Below are positions 2,527-60,995 of a DNA stretch of 64,000 nucleotides, piece by piece; the first letter of the stretch is position 1; every line of letters begins with the position of its first letter. The notes under the pieces are model-generated. The model had not been told where the DNA came from. It did not search any database and saw only the letters and a list, made by a program, of their open reading frames with translations. Source of the DNA: Malacoraja senta (lineage: Eukaryota). The position numbers and the translations under genes were made by a program. The stretch is taken from contig CM075994.1 in the NCBI GenBank assembly GCA_038087875.1, forward strand, positions 3,784,001 to 3,848,000. Direction: 5' to 3'.

Positions 2527-2552
2527 ATTACAAAAACTTCTTCAATGTACGA
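2527..2552 (+). CDS. Candidate microexon, 26 nt (LQKLLQCT if phase 2-1; DYKKLLQCT if one A is missing from the A5 run)
   Basis: attcag|ATTACAAAAACTTCTTCAATGTACGA|gtaagc; shares AACTTCTTCAA with the next exon; length is not 3n. Confidence 0.55.
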
Positions 2553-3299
2553 GTAAGCGAACATATTGAAATTATATGCGTTAACAATTCCCACAGTATT
2601 GCTTTGGTAATTTATTGAAAGACGATCTACGATACATTACTGGCGTCATGTCATAGAGTAAGTTATTTACATGATATGTAATATATTTCAATTTTCCTGG
2701 TATGGATACAACTATATTTCTTAATCCACATTCGTAAAATCCTGCCAATAGCTGATGCACAACGTCATAGGAGTATTAGGGGTATATTGCAAGAGTTAAT
2801 GCATACACTTGTTGCTCGCTGTTTTCTACATTCATCTTGTTTGCTCTGAAAGCGTGTTTTTCTCTCGCACATCATCTGAAAGCAATCTAACCCGCCTGAC
2901 ATTTCACCGTTTGTTCTCGGCACCGTCAGAATTAGCTGCTTCTGTTATCACATTCATCTTGATTTTCATTGAACCCGTCGGTCTTCTGTCACCTTTGCAT
3001 TAAATTGCTGGTTAATCGCAATTTGGTTCGAATGTAAATTTCCCATAGAAGGGGAATTTGCAAACGCACAGATTTACAAAACTACAAATTGTGGGAATGT
3101 AGAATCGTGCTCGGAGATCTTACAGAGATCTAGACTGAAAATGCCATAGCTAGATTTGAACGCGGCGTAAGTTCATATAAATAAAGGATCATTTTCGCTG
3201 TTTACGTCTGTGTATGTCAATATCCTTTGTGATGTCCAACGCCCTGTTCTCTTTTTTGCTGTTGAATGCGTAAATGCCCACTGCCTCATATACATGTCA

Positions 3300-3615
3300 T
3301 GGGGCGGCAGGTAGAGCTGCTGCCTGAGAACGCGCCAGAGACCGGGGTTCGATCCAGACCTCGGGTGCGTTCTGCGTGCAGTTTGCACATTCTCCCTGTG
3401 ACCGGCTAGGCTTCCTCCGGGAGATCCAGTTTGTTCCCACATCACAATGGCGTGCGGGTTTGTAGGTTAATTGGCCTGTGTAAAGTGTACGCTGTGTGTA
3501 GCCAGTGGATAGGAACGTGGGACGGCATAGAACTGCTGCTGTGGTGATCCATGGTGGCGTGGACGCAGCGGGCCGAAAGGCTTGTTTCCCACCTGTGCTT
3601 TAGAGTTAAAACAAA
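3300..3615 (+). mobile_element. tRNA-derived SINE (V-SINE/HE1-like)
   Basis: B-box GGTTCGATCC, central gtttgcacattctccctgtgacc domain, LINE-like tail. Confidence 0.75.
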
Positions 3616-4446
3616 GCGAAATTTCCCATCGCCCGGACGATATTGATGACCAGCTTATCACCTGGGCTCAAAATGCTTGTTAGCTGCAGGTTGAGACGCA
3701 ATCGGAGAAGCAACCCTTTCTACATCCTTCACCATGTATTGATCCCAAACGATGCAGACTGAGTCAATGAAAATGAGAGAATGAGAAAGGCGGGAAATTC
3801 ATCCAGCAGCTGACTTTTCTTCATTGTGTGCTCTAAAGTAACAGTAGTCTATTGGTAGATACCGATAGTTGAATGATCAGGGAAAGTCACTCCCGTAAAT
3901 GCAGAGAGGTCCCTTTCGCAACACGACGTCTAAACGGCCATTCGGGAGACCCCTGTCGCCGTGACCCGGCTATTTCCCCATCGCAAACAATGTCTGGATT
4001 CGGCAACGACTTGCCCGTTCCAGTGTCAATGATATGGATGGGCTTTAGAGGATATTGGGTTCCATAAGAATGCAGACGTATTCCATGTACTGCTCAATTT
4101 ATAAACTTCTGCTAATTAAACTGATTAACTTGGAATACAATTCATGGAAATGATTAAATGCAACATAATCGTTCTTAGTCATACCCTTATCTCCCTGAAA
4201 AAAGATTTAGTTTCACGTTGAGAATCATGCATTTACTTACAACCCTACCTATGTTTACAATCATAGTGGATCCTACAATTGTAAATAAAATATTTTGCAT
4301 TGATTTCACAGCACTCCGGTCTGCAAATCAATTCTCCATCCCTTGCACTATTGCAGAATATAAGACACATCGGTATATACATTTGAAATGATGATAATTT
4401 ATATGAAAGCATATTTACAATTAAATTGTTATTTTTCTTTTACCAG

Positions 4447-4473
4447 TGAAACAACTTCTTCAAAAAGATAAAG
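4447..4473 (+). CDS. Microexon, 27 nt, (M/V)KQLLQKDK
   Basis: tttttctttttaccag|...AAG|gtaaaa; phase 1-1 and open. Confidence 0.8.
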
Positions 4474-5593
4474 GTAAAAGGGAGCAGATAAATTCACCTA
4501 CAGATTCGTAGATGACAATTAACTATGTTAACGTGCATTTAATTTGTACCCCTATGGTTATCGGCTCATAACGTTACAACGAACTTTAATTGGATTATAA
4601 ATGTATAAATGTGTAAACTGGCAAATAGAACAGTGAACAAAGTCTACGTCGACTGCTTGAAGTAACATGCAGCAGTCTGCTGGCTTTGACTTTTTGGAAG
4701 GTTATTGCATGCACGAACAATAAATCCATGGCTTTTTAATGTACTTTGTCGACACCTGCATAATTGGAAGAAACATTGTACAGAAAACAACGTTCTTGTT
4801 TCAATCTACACAATTAATATAGAAAGTGTACTGATGGACTAAAGCTAAGGCATGTCCTTGGCCTATGACAACAACGGAACACCCGCGATTTCTCTATATT
4901 CTGTAAAAATTATCGTCCAAATAAAACCTTCAATCTCGCAAGCAAACAGTTCAGGCTGACGACCGGTGTCCTCTAGTTTATATTTTGTTGGACCGTTGGC
5001 ATGTGCCTTTCTCCAGTAATATTGATTGCCTGAAGATTGCACATTGTAAAGGGCAAACAGCATCAAACCGATTATATTTTTAACCGACCTTTTCATTTAT
5101 AATTTACCGCACAATTGGTGCATTGGTCATTTTGTTGTTATTCTTGATATCTGTACCGAGATAGGCGAAAATCTGTGTGTTGTATGCTACATAGAGAGAT
5201 GAGATATAATATACACCAATACAATCACGTCAACCTAAACTACAAAAGAAAGAGCAGAGAGGAAATGCAGTGCACAATATATTATTCGAAGCACATCAGT
5301 TCCATGGACCAAATCGAATTCCACAATAGGTTAGATGTGAATCGGTCAGCATCCCAATCTGCTGTGCTCGAGTTAGATCAATTTATGTGACCTTTTTTAG
5401 CAAAACTGATCAGTATGAATAGATCAGTAAGTGTGCTTTCTCCGATTTGCCCCAGTGTTTATCAATAAAGTCGACGTCAAGAAACAAAACAATTTGTACA
5501 TCGCGATTTGTGTCACAAAGAAAACTATCTTGATAGGTTAGGTGTGCTTGGACACACAAAGAACTCACCTGCCGTTCTTATTCTATTTTCCAG

Positions 5594-5629
5594 AAATAGA
5601 TGCATTGAAGGAAAGGTTGCAAGAATGTG
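5594..5629 (+). CDS. Microexon, 36 nt, EIDALKERLQEC
   Basis: ttctattttccag|...GTG|gtgaga. Confidence 0.85.
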
Positions 5630-58815: not shown

Positions 58816-59323
58816 TTGGTACACAAAAATGCTGGAGAAACTCAGCGGGTGCAGCAGCATCTATGGAGCGAAGGAAATAGGCAACGTTTCGGGCCGAAAC
58901 CCTTCTTCTGACTGATGGGGGTGGGAGGGGGCGGGGAGAAGAAATGAAAAAGGAGGAGGAGTACCCCGAGGGCTCAGGGAGAGCTGGGGAGGGGAGGAGA
59001 CAGCAAGGGCTAACAGAAATGTGAGAATTCAATGTTCATGCCACCAGGATGCAGTCTCCCCAAGTGGAATATGAGGTGTTGTTCCTCCAATTTCCGGTGG
59101 TGCTCACTCTGGCCATGGCGGAGGCCCAGGACAGAGAAGTCGGATACGGAAAGGGAGGGGGAGTTGAAGTGCTGAGCCACCGGGAGGTCTGGTTGGTTAA
59201 TGCGGACCGAGCGGAGGTGTTCGGCGAAATGATCGCCAAGCCTACGCTTGGTCTCACCGATGTAGATCAGCTGACATCTACACCAGCCGATGCAATAGAT
59301 GAGGTTGGAGGAGATGCAGGTGA
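58816..59323 (-). mobile_element. Short Penelope-like copy, same family as 33160
   Basis: Near-identical end; 13-bp direct repeat ttgggcattatcc at 58803-58815 and 59324-59336. Confidence 0.9.
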
Positions 59324-59874
59324 TTGGGCATTATCCCATTCTGTTGGCACTGTGTATTTAAAACATATGGATGGCAAAGGAAAATTCTGGAATTGAGAAT
59401 GAAGGAATAAACTGGAAAACACAAAGAGAAATTATACACAAGGAAAGCGAATAGAAGCGTTTACAAACAGTAATGGAGAAATTTGATTAAGAATAATTCT
59501 CTTATTTTATTCGCGATACTGAAATCAGTCGGTTGAAAATTGTGCACATGTATCTGTTAATTACCTTGATTATGTCCCTGCTTGAGTTAACTGATGTGTA
59601 TTAGGAATGTTCTGCGAGAAGCTCTTTACGTTATTCGGAATGCTGCTAGCATCGATGCTGGTATGAAATAGAAAGAGTATTCACTGCAAATCAGGGTGAT
59701 ATTACCCATAGGAAAGAACTTTTCTGTTGTTATTATTTGATATCTCTTCGAAAATACAAATGATCATTCAACACCGTTTCAAGAAAAAGTGTTGGATGAA
59801 CAACGAAATGTTGATTCAATTGTGGACATGGAAGAACAACTTGAGTAATTTGCAGAAGTTAGTGCAATGTAAGA

Positions 59875-60218
59875 GTGAGTGAGTGTGTGTGTGCGCGTGT
59901 GTGTGTGTGCGTGCGTGCGCGCGTGTGTGTGTGTGTGTGTGTGTGTGTGTGTGTGTGTGTGTGTGTGTGTGAGTGTGTGTGTGTGTCTGTGTGTGTGAGT
60001 GTGTGAGTGTGTGTGTGTGCGTGCGTGTGTGTGTGTGTGTGTGTGTGTGTGTGTGTGTGTGTGTGTGTGTGTGTGTGTGTGTGTGTGTGTTTGTGTGTGT
60101 GTGTGTGTGTGTGTGTGTGTGTGTGTGTGTGTGTGTGTGTGTGTGTGTGTGTGTGTGTGTGTGTGTGTGTGTGTGTGTGTGTGTGTGTGTGTGTGTGTGA
60201 GCGCGTGCGTGTGTGTGA
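59875..60218. repeat. Long (GT)n microsatellite
   Basis: Seen directly. Confidence 0.95.
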
Positions 60219-60778
60219 TAGAGAGCGAGTAAGAAACCCCAGGATAATATGCCCCTCCAATCTCGGACAAGTTACAAAAGTAACTTTTGGACAATTTAAT
60301 AAATAATTATAATCATAATCGCAATATATTAGCCAATATCTTTTGCAACATACGAGGAATGTGGTTTGCAAACATCCACCACGGCGCTCCTCCACATCCC
60401 CCACTGTGATTTACATTCTTATCTTCCTTCCTCCTTTCCTCCCGCAGTCGGGGGAGTCAATCCATCCGCAGCCGGCGATCGAGCTCCCATGTCGGTGGGG
60501 TTTAAGCTCCCGCATCGGGGCGGTCGAAATTCCAGCGGCTCTGAGTTCCCGAAGTCGGTCCCTAACGAGGGACCGCAAACTCGACTATGTTAAAGTCCGC
60601 AGCTCCCTCAGCTTGGAGCACCGTAGGCCAACCCCTGGCTAAGGGACCGCCCGCTCAGAGATGTTAAAATCCGCAGATGGTTTTGGAACAATGCCGAGAG
60701 TATTAAGACTGAACATACTACTATTATGTACCCCAATGCTAATAGACATTTAAGTTACTATGTTTTTTCATTTCACAG

Positions 60779-60805
60779 AGGACGAACTGAAAAACAAAGG
60801 AACAG
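60779..60805 (+). CDS. Microexon, 27 nt, EDELKNKGT
   Basis: ttttttcatttcacag|...CAG|gtacca. Confidence 0.75.
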
Positions 60806-60968
60806 GTACCACATTTAATTAAATTATGAAGATCTTCTAAATGCTTAATCGGTGTTGGTTAATATTTGGTATGCTTCTTTGATTACATGTTTTGCTGAAA
60901 TGATGCAATATCGTCGCATATTTCCAATGCAATATGTAATTGGCATTTTGAAATATCTTTCATAACAG

Positions 60969-60995
60969 ATATGGACAAACATGTGCAACTCGATG
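60969..60995 (+). CDS. Microexon, 27 nt, DMDKHVQLD
   Basis: atctttcataacag|...ATG|gtgagt. Confidence 0.7.

What the first reader, a model, noticed from the sequence alone, without database searches (positions are those of the whole stretch)
2527..60995. Hidden microexon-array gene: about 22 tiny symmetric exons over 58 kb encoding a modular coiled coil
Seen: 21 exons of 15-36 nt, each with a pyrimidine tract and AG plus a GT donor, all phase 1-1 and 3n long, all on the + strand. They join into 201 stop-free codons rich in E, K, L and R. Coding density is about 1%, so an ORF finder misses the gene completely. Established: chicken BG genes encode cytoplasmic heptad tails with many 21-nt exons; butyrophilins use 21/27-nt phase-1 exons between the TM and B30.2 domains; the CD23 stalk uses 63-nt exons. 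Inference: this could be an elasmobranch BG/butyrophilin-like or other receptor tail/stalk whose length is tunable by combinatorial, frame-preserving exon skipping. Identity cannot be fixed from this window.
Basis: partly seen in the sequence, partly recalled or inferred. Interest (0 to 1): 0.92.

Follow-up and report, generated by a model that had tools for sequence, protein, structure and literature searches.

The report
Giant microexon coiled-coil gene family in skate
The window lies inside a very large skate gene made almost only of 27- and 36-base exons that would join into a long, proline-free helical rod; the design is real and kept by selection, but no RNA data or recognisable end domain was available to say which protein it is.

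Summary
On the + strand I curate 21 exons of 15-36 nt in the window. Each has a pyrimidine tract, AG, a 3n length and a GT donor, and each is open only in phase 1-1. The minus strand gives 1 such exon, and dinucleotide shuffles give about 2.

With fetched flanks, the array runs at least 278 kb and holds 75 exons, 720 codons, no stop and no proline. The main classes are a 36-nt exon (E-[LIV]-x-x-[LIV]-K-x-x-L-x-x-x) and a 27-nt exon ([ED]-x-x-L-x-x-K-[ED]-x). Together they make a 21-residue, three-heptad unit.

At least three further colinear paralogous arrays lie on the same contig, and a second cluster of about 2.5 Mb lies on another contig. All 8 exons tested have intact counterparts in a paralogue despite about 27% intron divergence. 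Neutral simulation puts that at 1e-5 or less.

No Ig, TM, B30.2 or C-type lectin exon was found in the 314 kb read, so BG/butyrophilin or CD23-like identity is untested to unsupported. No RNA run exists here, and spliced peptides could not be submitted to searches. The host is a batoid, probably a skate.

The parts
4447..4473 (+). 27-nt exon, phase 1-1, reads KQLLQKDK
   Evidence: Acceptor score 6.7, donor score 2.7. Open only in phase 1-1.
5594..5629 (+). 36-nt exon, reads IDALKERLQEC
   Evidence: Flanked by ttccag and gtgaga. It matches the genome-wide 36-nt pattern. Paralogous exons with an identical matched sequence lie at C18:4989313 and C18:5596181.
9191..9205 (+). 15-nt exon, reads DKEK
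   Evidence: Acceptor score 6.4 but a weak donor, gtacac.
10729..10746 (+). 18-nt exon, reads HLDDD
   Evidence: Acceptor score 3.3, donor score 5.1 (gtaagc).
11827..11853 (+). 27-nt exon, reads AKLRETKT
   Evidence: Cross-validated total score 9.7. Scores listed.
13072..13107 (+). 36-nt exon, reads LERIEEIRKDV
   Evidence: Cross-validated total 11.7. Its similarity to the exon at +117229 covers only the exon plus 17 nt upstream and 5 nt downstream.
14954..14980 (+). 27-nt exon, reads KLLKLKDE
   Evidence: Total score 19.8. Paralogous matches at C18:4956399 and C18:5575151.
16882..16908 (+). 27-nt exon, reads IEYLRKQA
   Evidence: Acceptor score 5.4, donor score 1.1. Weaker than most.
20555..20581 (+). 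27-nt exon, reads RLLRQKDD
   Evidence: Donor score 6.3 (gtaagt) with a weak pyrimidine tract.
31047..31082 (+). 36-nt exon, reads ILELKRLLKEA
   Evidence: Total score 20.3. It has 8 paralogous matches, all on contig C18.
32736..32759 (+). 24-nt exon, reads AKVCITD
   Evidence: Splice scores 4.2 and 4.9. Its colinear counterpart in paralogue C is 27 nt, so the two differ by an in-frame 3-nt change.
35468..35494 (+). 27-nt exon, reads EQQKHKDK
   Evidence: It is 84% identical over 92 nt to the exon at 40443, so the two are a local duplicate.
39184..39219 (+). 36-nt exon, reads KELLEAFKKDV
   Evidence: An intact counterpart exists in paralogue C, which has a 9-nt deletion in its pyrimidine tract.
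40443..40469 (+). 27-nt exon, reads EQLRQKDK
   Evidence: Its counterpart in paralogue C is EQLRRKDE.
49755..49781 (+). 27-nt exon, reads IKELISKK
   Evidence: The best-scoring exon (total 22.0). Its paralogue at C18:5501575 reads IKKLQAEK.
52347..52373 (+). 27-nt exon, reads SSTTDKES
   Evidence: Splice scores 3.8 and 4.3. Paralogue C has four intact copies.
53078..53101 (+). 24-nt exon, reads VTTLREC
   Evidence: Splice scores 8.4 and 4.9. Its counterpart in paralogue C is IKRLREC.
56205..56231 (+). 27-nt exon, reads KQLADLRI; first exon of a block of about 25 kb that is duplicated in tandem
57986..58021 (+). 36-nt exon, reads LRSVKQSLKEK
   Evidence: Copies at +87542 within the same gene and at C18:4889104, C18:5472774 and C18:6035206.
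60779..60805 (+). 27-nt exon, reads DELKNKGT
   Evidence: Acceptor score 7.3 with a weak donor, gtacca. The duplicate at +89434 is intact.
60969..60995 (+).
   Evidence: Donor score 6.2 (gtgagt). It is 27/27 identical to the duplicate at +89623, while the flanking introns are about 82% identical.
7471..7497 (+). weaker candidate 27-nt exon, reads SNLRRKEL
   Evidence: It has ctttcag and gtaatg, but splice scores of only -0.3 and -0.2. Not in the curated list.
9844..9864 (+). weaker candidate 21-nt exon, reads RQESLE
   Evidence: Splice scores -1.4 and -2.0. Doubtful.
17951..17986 (+). candidate 36-nt exon that is not helix-like, reads IVRPTTSTIEK
   Evidence: Good donor (6.6), but it contains proline and has a composition score of -10.9. 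Either a linker exon or a false call.
54073..54102 (+). weak candidate 30-nt exon, reads QKVKRGLDR
   Evidence: Splice scores -1.4 and -3.0. It lies beside a reverse-transcriptase ORF. Doubtful.
   Evidence: The sequence is cag|26 nt|gtaagc. Taken as 27 nt it would be followed by TA. Composition score -7.3.

Best explanation
The window is an internal piece of a giant protein-coding gene of a batoid (skate-like) fish. In all 314 kb that I read, the gene's coding sequence is made only of microexons. At least 75 exons are spread over at least 278 kb, with a median intron of about 2 kb. 42 exons are 27 nt and 21 are 36 nt. All are 3n long and in phase 1-1.

Spliced in genomic order, they would give at least 720 residues with no stop, no proline and no tryptophan. 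About 18% are Glu, 18% Lys and 14% Leu. The hydrophobic residues follow a heptad pattern, which indicates a long alpha-helical coiled-coil rod. One 36-nt exon plus one 27-nt exon form a 21-residue (three-heptad) module. That module has a conserved lysine at the last core position.

The gene belongs to a family of colinear paralogous arrays. The family grew by duplication of exons, exon blocks and whole genes. Copies are born and lost, and the amino-acid sequence changes fast.

Shown: the exon signals, frame, composition, periodicity, paralogy, and the maintenance of splice sites and frame. Inferred: that these exons are spliced together in one mRNA; that the product is a coiled coil rather than a single charged helix; and that rod length is set or tuned by which symmetric exons are included (I put that last step at about 35%).
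For: Splice-signal, 3n and phase excess on the + strand only:
- 18 candidates on the + strand against 1 on the minus strand; shuffles give a mean of 2.15 (max 7).
- Cross-validated: 22 against 1.

Frame and signals:
- 75 of 75 curated exons are open in the phase 1-1 frame, against 32 and 31 of 75 in the other two frames.
- 60 of 75 acceptors are CAG. 39 of 75 donors are GTGAG or GTAAG. 71 of 75 exons end in G. 47 of 74 junction codons are Glu.
- No stop, proline or tryptophan in 720 codons.

Periodicity:
- Local 3.5-residue periodicity is 0.484, against 0.182 +/- 0.03 for shuffled residues.
- With the order of exons shuffled it is 0.299 +/- 0.043, and 0 of 500 shuffles reach the observed value. 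Neighbouring exons are therefore in register.

The array continues in every flank that I fetched, always on the + strand: (in one search, 7 candidates on + against 0 on -).

Paralogues:
- Colinear matches of four probe exons lie at C18 4.89-4.96 Mb (-), 5.47-5.58 Mb (-) and 6.01-6.04 Mb (+).
- In 40 kb of the second paralogue there are 10 distinct intact exons on the minus strand and 0 on the plus strand.
- 8 of 8 exons between window 31 and 53 kb have intact counterparts there.
- Colinear intron alignments show 27% mismatches and 0.024 gap openings per site over 4527 columns. Simulated neutral decay keeps all 8 exons intact with probability 8e-6 (substitutions only) to 8e-8.
- All 8 exon pairs of the internal 25-kb duplication are also intact.

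Genome-wide pattern for the 36-nt class: 35 matches against 8 for the reversed control. 15 lie on C18 between 3.25 and 5.65 Mb and 15 on C5 between 15.6 and 18.1 Mb.
Against: - No RNA evidence: no RNA run was listed for this stretch, so no junction has been seen.
- The ends of the gene were not found. It is not shown that the 278 kb is one transcription unit rather than several.
- Exons are not more conserved than alignable intron. In the internal duplication, identity is 203/234 (86.8%) for exons and 3245/3911 (83.0%) for introns (Fisher p = 0.15). Between paralogues it is 105/141 (74.5%) against 1300/1730 (75.1%).
- Changed codons are 7 synonymous and 14 non-synonymous in the first comparison, and 8 and 16 in the second. 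Constraint on the residues themselves is weak.
- Some copies have decayed: 2 of 5 copies of a 21-nt exon unit upstream lost a splice site, and the 2527 copy is 26 nt.
- If every 27-nt exon in a run is included, the heptad register drifts. By my own count on the output, 12 + 5 x 9 residues = 8 heptads + 1.
- The splice matrices are my own, built from recalled consensus frequencies.
- The curated exon list was selected by score, so the statistics are partly circular. Searches are not.
Confidence: 0.8

Rival explanations
1. The arrays are the cytoplasmic tails of BG/butyrophilin-type receptors. Upstream IgV and TM exons (and possibly a downstream B30.2 exon) would lie outside the DNA that I could read.
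For: - The logic is the same as in chicken BG genes: many tiny exons, each coding for part of a heptad coiled coil, 13-36 per gene (PMC4046983, passages read).
- Phase 1-1 symmetry fits Ig-superfamily gene structure (recalled).
- The B30.2 exon that I read on this contig has a phase-1 acceptor and could therefore follow such exons in frame.
- The contig is rich in B30.2 genes: 25 of the 150 scored SPRY matches.
- Skates have butyrophilin-like genes.
Against: - Pfam scans of the 314 kb found no V-set, Ig, SPRY or PRY hit. These scans are not exhaustive: 102 + strand ORFs of 75-119 aa between about +91 and +184 kb were not sent.
- Only 2 of 75 exons are 21 nt and 7 are 24 nt. The rest are 27 or 36 nt, with introns of kilobases.
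- The nearest + strand B30.2 exon (4.559 Mb) belongs to a TRIM39-like gene, with 98% identity to a 354-aa RING/B-box/SPRY protein.
- No 36-nt pattern hit lies between 4.153 and 4.559 Mb.
- The four batoid butyrophilin-like proteins that I read have short TM-to-B30.2 linkers.
- None of the 150 scored SPRY matches lies on C5, the contig of the second cluster.
- The genome-wide V-set search scored only 150 of 1517 candidates, so it says nothing about this contig.
Confidence: 0.12
2. The arrays encode the extracellular coiled-coil stalk of a type II C-type lectin receptor of the CD23 kind, whose stalk is built of 21-residue repeats.
For: Phase 1-1 symmetry.
Against: - 0 of 81 Lectin_C matches (112 candidates, all scored) lie on contig C18. 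The only one on C5 is at 59.2 Mb, far from the 15.6-18.1 Mb cluster.
- No lectin hit among + strand ORFs of at least 40 aa between +193.6 and +223 kb.
Confidence: 0.03
3. The arrays are not expressed as protein. They would be decaying remnants of a once-functional gene family, or repeat-borne pseudo-exons that only look like coding sequence.
For: - No RNA evidence.
- Exon identity is about the same as intron identity between copies.
- Non-synonymous codon changes outnumber synonymous ones 2:1.
- Some copies have lost a splice site or their 3n length.
- Two exon-like candidates proved to lie in interspersed repeats: 33259 (98% identical to a copy at +173577) and 41897 (inside the reverse-transcriptase ORF 41465-42400 on the minus strand, with a second near-identical copy at +213396).
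Against: - Neutral decay at the measured intron divergence would leave all 8 tested exons intact with probability 1e-5 or less. 8 of 8 are intact in paralogue C, and 8 of 8 in the internal duplicate.
- No frameshifting indel in any of the 13 aligned exon pairs (234 + 141 nt), whereas introns show 0.024 gap openings per site.
- 0 prolines and 0 stops in 720 codons.
- Heptad register depends on the native exon order.
- Apart from the two cases above, the exons are not parts of known repeats.
Confidence: 0.06

Closest known systems
Chicken BG genes (butyrophilin family): cytoplasmic tails built from many 21- or 24-nt exons (PMC4046983, passages read; PMC5938342, listing and abstract only)
   Same: - A long run of tiny exons, each coding for a few residues of a heptad-type, E/K/L-rich helix predicted to form a coiled coil.
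- The number of exons varies between paralogues.
- A multigene cluster that evolves by duplication.
- A genomic neighbourhood with B30.2/TRIM genes. For chicken this is recalled; here it rests.
   Different: - Exons here are 27 and 36 nt, pairing into 21-residue modules, not 21/24 nt (one heptad).
- There are at least 75 exons, against 13-36 per BG gene.
- Introns have a median of about 2 kb and reach 47 kb. I recall BG introns as short.
- No IgV or TM exon was found in 314 kb.
- The host is an elasmobranch, not a bird.
Butyrophilin heptad linker exons (a few 21/27-nt exons between TM and B30.2); the exon sizes are recalled, and PMC4046983 speaks of 'a few cytoplasmic heptad repeats'
   Same: Small phase-compatible exons that code for heptads. 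The B30.2 exon read on this contig has a phase-1 acceptor.
   Different: - Butyrophilins have only a few such exons.
- The batoid butyrophilin-like proteins that I read have a linker of about 25-30 residues.
- No B30.2 exon is linked to the arrays.
CD23 (FCER2) stalk: 21-residue repeats, each on a 63-nt exon
   Same: A 21-residue, three-heptad module that can be duplicated or deleted in frame.
   Different: The module here is split over two exons (36 + 27 nt). No C-type lectin domain lies on the contig. The scale is tens of modules rather than 3-4.
Schistosome micro-exon genes (MEGs) (10.1101/2023.06.21.545858, abstract read)
   Same: Genes made mostly of very short symmetric exons separated by long introns, so that ORF finders miss them and exon skipping keeps the frame.
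   Different: MEGs encode small secreted proteins of flatworms, with exons of 3-81 bp and no coiled-coil periodicity. This is a vertebrate gene with a helical product of at least 720 residues. Homology is neither suggested nor tested.
Troponin T N-terminal mini-exons (TNNT3 exons 4-8) (PMC2447309, abstract read)
   Same: A run of small, alternatively spliced, acidic exons inside a coiled-coil-associated protein.
   Different: There are only about five such exons, lying within an otherwise ordinary gene.

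Membership tests
BG / butyrophilin (B7 superfamily) | N-terminal signal peptide, IgV (with or without IgC) exon(s) and a TM exon upstream of the heptad exons | tested here: inconclusive
   No V-set or Ig hit among ORFs of at least 120 aa (both strands, first 150 of 155) or among the first 150 of 252 + strand ORFs of 75-119 aa (window -60 kb to about +91 kb). 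However, the 5' end of the gene was not located. The genome-wide V-set search scored only 150 of 1517 candidates, none on C18.
BG / butyrophilin (B7 superfamily) | Heptad region encoded by 21-nt (sometimes 24-nt) exons, one heptad each | tested here: not met
   Of 75 exons, 42 are 27 nt, 21 are 36 nt, 7 are 24 nt and 2 are 21 nt. The BG exon sizes come from PMC4046983.
Butyrophilin proper | C-terminal B30.2 (PRY-SPRY) exon following the heptad exons | tested here: inconclusive
   No SPRY hit in the scanned ORFs of the 314 kb. Only 1 of the 150 scored SPRY matches (696 candidates) lies within C18 3.2-6.1 Mb. It lies in a TRIM39-like gene. The 3' end of the gene was not reached.
CD23-type C-type lectin receptors | C-terminal C-type lectin domain | tested here: not met
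   0 of 81 Lectin_C matches lie on C18. The one on C5 is 41 Mb away from the second cluster.
Alpha-helical coiled coil (structural class, not a homology family) | Heptad spacing of hydrophobic residues, absence of helix breakers, high content of charged residues | tested here: met
   Hydrophobic residues sit at positions 2, 5, 9 and 12 of the 36-nt class and at position 4 of the 27-nt class. The periodicity peaks at 3.5 residues, about 10 SD above shuffled residues. There are 0 Pro and 8 Gly in 720 residues. No coiled-coil predictor or structure model could be run on the spliced peptide.
Schistosome MEGs | Flatworm genes for small secreted proteins, with microexons flanked by longer terminal exons | tested here: not met
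   The host is a batoid vertebrate. The product has at least 720 residues. Terminal exons were not found.

The most novel reading that the evidence does not exclude
The arrays form a vertebrate gene family that has not been described. In it, more than 70 consecutive microexons, separated by introns of kilobases, are spliced into a modular coiled-coil rod. The family occupies two clusters of about 2.5 Mb each. Because every exon is symmetric and the modules differ in sequence, the locus could generate a combinatorial repertoire of rod lengths and surfaces. Recognising so many exons of 36 nt or less across long introns would call for a dedicated splicing mechanism.
Probability: 0.3. Interest if true: 0.85.

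Novelty: new variant of a known kind. Interest (0 to 1): 0.68.

Why it matters
Exons of 36 nt or less are normally hard for the spliceosome to define. They usually occur singly and are helped by special factors. A gene that must join 75 or more of them across introns of about 2 kb (up to 47 kb) would be an extreme natural test case for microexon recognition.

It would also extend the 'heptads on tiny exons' design, known from chicken BG genes, to a cartilaginous fish and to a far larger scale. The family covers roughly 5 Mb in two clusters and changes fast in sequence while keeping frame and splice sites. That pattern is typical of immune or reproductive gene families, so its expression pattern would be informative.

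In practice, such genes are almost invisible to ORF-based methods and to many aligner-based annotations. They may be missing or broken in current elasmobranch gene sets.

Tried and rejected
- **RNA evidence.** The look-up of sequencing runs listed no RNA holder. It listed only one run of unknown kind that holds 87% of the words, which I take to be DNA.
- **Homology search with the spliced peptide.** I aligned 21 translations of single 36-nt exons, each given by reference.
- **Promoter idea.** A GC-rich, CpG-rich block at -28.7 to -27.7 kb, with a strong donor just after it, looked like a first exon. The block is a high-copy interspersed repeat (24,962 first-look candidates, copies 81-93% identical), so the idea was dropped.
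- **Longer exons.** A scan for 61-900 nt exons with good splice sites gave 30 rows on the + strand and 16 on the minus strand, none convincing.
- **False exon calls removed.** 33259-33309 is 98% identical to a copy at +173577. 41897-41926 lies inside the reverse-transcriptase ORF 41465-42400 on the minus strand and has a second near-identical copy at +213396. 155525 also lies in a repeat.
- **Probe 53030-53150.** It hit a common interspersed repeat and told nothing about paralogues.
- **V-set genome search.** Uninformative.
- **Rfam.** No match in the window.
- **Earlier findings of this scan.** Nothing for this genome, and nothing related under 'microexon'.
- **Literature.** Searches for microexon or heptad arrays, 27/36-nt exons, 21-residue repeats, and elasmobranch microexons found no description of such a gene. 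These are word searches of open-access text only, and one search listed 15 of 1,331 papers.
- **Gene ends.** Not reached.

Full report
**What is in the window**

The window is 43.7% G+C with a CpG observed/expected ratio of 0.69. It corresponds to bases 3,784,001-3,848,000 of an 11.9-Mb contig (C18) of a 1.94-Gb assembly.

A naive scan for pyrimidine tract + AG ... GT, 15-36 nt, 3n long and open in phase 1-1 already turned up a set of striking + strand candidates. They have CAG acceptors behind long pyrimidine tracts and GTAAG or GTGAG donors.

I then scored splice sites with simple weight matrices that I built from recalled vertebrate consensus frequencies. The + strand has 24 AG..GT pairs of 12-48 nt with a splice sum of at least 7. 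Of these, 18 are 3n long and all 18 are open in phase 1-1. The minus strand gives 6, 2 and 1. One hundred dinucleotide shuffles give a mean of 2.15 (max 7) for the last class. Block-wise shuffles give 1.77 (max 6).

A composition score trained only on exons outside the window then separates 22 + strand candidates from 1 minus strand candidate inside it.

My curated in-window list has 21 exons and 585 nt, a coding density of 1.03%.

**Extent of the gene**

I fetched flanks from the same contig. The same kind of exon continues on the + strand from about -25 kb to at least +252.7 kb in window coordinates. A LINE-rich gap lies between +198 and +241 kb. The minus strand of the same DNA gives almost nothing.

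The curated list has 75 exons over 277,908 nt:

| Feature | Value |
|---|---|
| 27-nt exons | 42 |
| 36-nt exons | 21 |
| 24-nt exons | 7 |
| 21-nt exons | 2 |
| 15-, 18-, 30-nt exons | 1 each |
| Median intron | 2,041 nt (range 118 to 47,500) |

All 75 exons are open in the phase 1-1 frame, against 32 and 31 of 75 in the other two frames. 60 acceptors are CAG, and 39 donors are GTGAG or GTAAG. 71 exons end in G, so 47 of 74 junction codons are Glu.

Neither end of the gene was found. A GC-rich block at -28 kb that I first took for a promoter is a high-copy repeat. A search for longer exons found none that convinced me.

Pfam scans found only transposon domains (reverse transcriptase, endonuclease, integrase, GIY-YIG), a frameshifted ZFP36-like zinc-finger ORF and an NDUFA1-like ORF. 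The scans covered ORFs of at least 120 aa on both strands (first 150 of 155), the first 150 of 252 + strand ORFs of 75-119 aa, and + strand ORFs of at least 40 aa in the last 30 kb before the gap (first 150 of 160).

**The conceptual product**

Joined in genomic order, the 75 exons give 720 codons with no stop, no proline and no tryptophan. Composition is E 18.3%, K 17.8%, L 14.3% and D 9.2%.

- The 36-nt class (n = 19) reads E-[LIV]-x-x-[LIV]-K-x-x-L-x-x-[AVK].
- The 27-nt class (n = 39) reads [ED]-x-x-L-x-x-K-[ED]-x.

One of each makes 21 residues. Hydrophobic residues fall at a, d, a, d and a positions, and a conserved lysine sits where the sixth core residue would be.

Local periodicity peaks at 3.5 residues: 0.484 against 0.182 +/- 0.03 for shuffled residues. 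It is also higher than in any of 500 shuffles of exon order (0.299 +/- 0.043). Neighbouring exons are thus in heptad register with each other, which is indirect evidence that they are joined as they lie.

Where several 27-nt exons follow one another, the register drifts. This leaves room for skipping or mutually exclusive use, but it does not demonstrate either.

**Evidence that the exons are maintained**

A block of about 25 kb holding eight exons (56-80 kb) is duplicated in tandem (82-104 kb). All eight pairs keep AG, GT, length and frame.

Four probe exons find colinear matches elsewhere on C18: at 4.89-4.96 Mb (-), 5.47-5.58 Mb (-) and 6.01-6.04 Mb (+). In 40 kb fetched from the second of these, 10 distinct intact exons lie on the minus strand and none on the plus strand. 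They follow the same order as window exons 31047 to 53078. With the counterpart of 39184, 8 of 8 window exons in that segment have intact partners.

The colinear introns differ at 27% of aligned sites, with 0.024 gap openings per site (4,527 columns). Neutral simulation at such rates keeps all eight exons intact with probability 8e-6 (substitutions only) to about 1e-7.

The residues themselves are only weakly constrained. Exon identity is no higher than that of alignable intron: 86.8% against 83.0% (p = 0.15), and 74.5% against 75.1%. Changed codons are non-synonymous about twice as often as synonymous. Some copies have decayed: 2 of 5 copies of a 21-nt exon unit upstream, and the 2527 copy.

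The picture is birth-and-death evolution, with selection on splice sites, frame and helical character rather than on exact sequence.

**Size of the family**

I wrote an IUPAC pattern for the 36-nt class with both splice sites. It finds 7 36-nt exons of this gene (19 were curated in that region) and nothing on the opposite strand. Across the genome it has 35 matches, against 8 for the reversed-pattern control:

- 15 on C18 between 3.25 and 5.65 Mb;
- 15 on contig C5 between 15.60 and 18.14 Mb, in blocks of alternating strand;
- 5 elsewhere, one of them identical to a C18 hit.

The family therefore fills two clusters of roughly 2.5 Mb each. Extrapolating from the pattern's sensitivity gives a few hundred microexons. 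That figure is an inference, not a count.

**What it is not, as far as I could test**

- *C-type lectin stalk.* None of 81 Lectin_C matches lies on C18.
- *B30.2.* C18 carries 25 of the 150 scored SPRY matches, mostly at 9.8-10.8 Mb, but only one lies among the arrays (4.559 Mb, + strand). I read that exon. It is a terminal PRY-SPRY exon with a phase-1 acceptor, and it is 98% identical to an annotated 354-aa RING/B-box/SPRY 'TRIM39-like' protein of a skate. It is therefore a TRIM gene lying between two arrays. No pattern hit lies in the 400 kb before it.
- *Butyrophilins.* The batoid butyrophilin-like proteins among the hits have only about 25-30 residues between the TM segment and B30.2 (read by eye).
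- *V-set.* The V-set search could not address this contig.

One search also settles the host.

**How it most likely works, and the rivals**

My best reading (confidence 0.8 that these are genuine coding exons) is a family of very long coiled-coil rod proteins built from 21-residue modules on exon pairs. Symmetric phase allows exons and blocks to be duplicated, lost or skipped without breaking the frame. That the cell actually tunes rod length by exon choice is plausible but unshown (about 35%).

| Rival | Confidence |
|---|---|
| Tail of a BG/butyrophilin-type receptor | 0.12 |
| CD23-like lectin stalk | 0.03 |
| Unexpressed relic | 0.06 |

Whether the product is cytoplasmic, membrane-bound or secreted cannot be told without the terminal exons.

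**Comparison and novelty**

The closest known design is the chicken BG gene. Its cytoplasmic coiled coil is encoded by 13-36 exons of 21 or 24 nt (PMC4046983, passages read). This locus shares the principle, but differs in module size (36 + 27 nt), number of exons (at least 75), intron size (kilobases), host, and the absence so far of an IgV/TM head.

Schistosome micro-exon genes share only the symmetric-microexon architecture (abstract of 10.1101/2023.06.21.545858).

My word searches of open-access papers found no description of such a gene. That is weak evidence, and the gene may well exist as an unnamed automatic model in public annotations, which I could not query.

I file it as a new variant of a known kind. 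It is interesting mainly as an extreme case for microexon splicing, and as a possible elasmobranch counterpart of the BG-type 'heptads on tiny exons' design.

Noticed in passing
L004:3219-4161 (window about -46.8 to -45.8 kb): Two ZFP36/TIS11-type CCCH zinc fingers lie in different reading frames, next to a long (GT)n run (Pfam zf-CCCH, E = 2.8e-6). This is probably a frameshifted pseudogene or an assembly error, lying upstream of the array or within one of its introns.
   Followed up: partly
L010:194-448 (window about +74.2 kb): An intron of the array holds an ORF that matches the NDUFA1 (MWFE) subunit of complex I (E = 1e-5, just under Pfam's cut-off). It may be a retrocopy.
   Followed up: no
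L006:1345-2307 (window -28.66 to -27.69 kb): A GC-rich block contains a 42-nt tandem repeat and mimics a CpG island. It is a very abundant interspersed repeat (24,962 first-look candidates; copies 81-93% identical).
   Followed up: yes
window 22971-23844 (-), 33396-34328 (-), 41465-44692 (-), 53133-54082 (+): The introns hold transposon remnants. At 22971-23844 there are LTR-retrotransposon RNase H and integrase domains. At 33396-34328 there is a GIY-YIG ORF, which I recall as Penelope-like. At 41465-44692 there is a LINE with endonuclease and reverse transcriptase. At 53133-54082 there is a reverse-transcriptase fragment on the + strand.
   Followed up: partly
window 36867-38303, 44939-45611, 46047-47036, 47349-47784, 48702-49308, 59875-60217: The introns hold very long simple repeats: (TG)n of 673 and 508 nt, (CT)n, (GT)n of 343 nt, C/T-rich and G-rich minisatellites, and a 23-nt tandem repeat. 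They cause the strong strand-skew swings seen in the composition profile.
   Followed up: no
L007/L008, window about -16.7 to -9.7 kb: Five copies of a repeat unit (four of them spaced about 0.4-0.9 kb apart, the fifth about 5 kb further upstream) each carry a small exon reading K-D/G-D-K-E-A/T (18 nt in the -16.66 kb copy, 21 nt in the others). Three copies have intact AG and GT, and two have lost one splice site. This shows exon birth and death within the array.
   Followed up: yes
L032:2867-3399 (C18:4,559,067-4,559,599, + strand): A terminal PRY-SPRY (B30.2) exon of a TRIM39-like gene, with a phase-1 acceptor, lies between two microexon arrays. Contig C18 holds 25 of the 150 best SPRY matches in the genome, mostly at 9.8-10.8 Mb, which points to a large TRIM/B30.2 cluster on the same small contig.
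   Followed up: partly
C4996:22645-22687 and C4996:1618-1695: A small unplaced contig carries exon copies. One is identical in the matched 43 nt to the exon at C18:5596181, and the other matches the probe exon with the same score as C18:5575151. It is probably an unmerged haplotype or a very recent duplicate of paralogue C.
   Followed up: no
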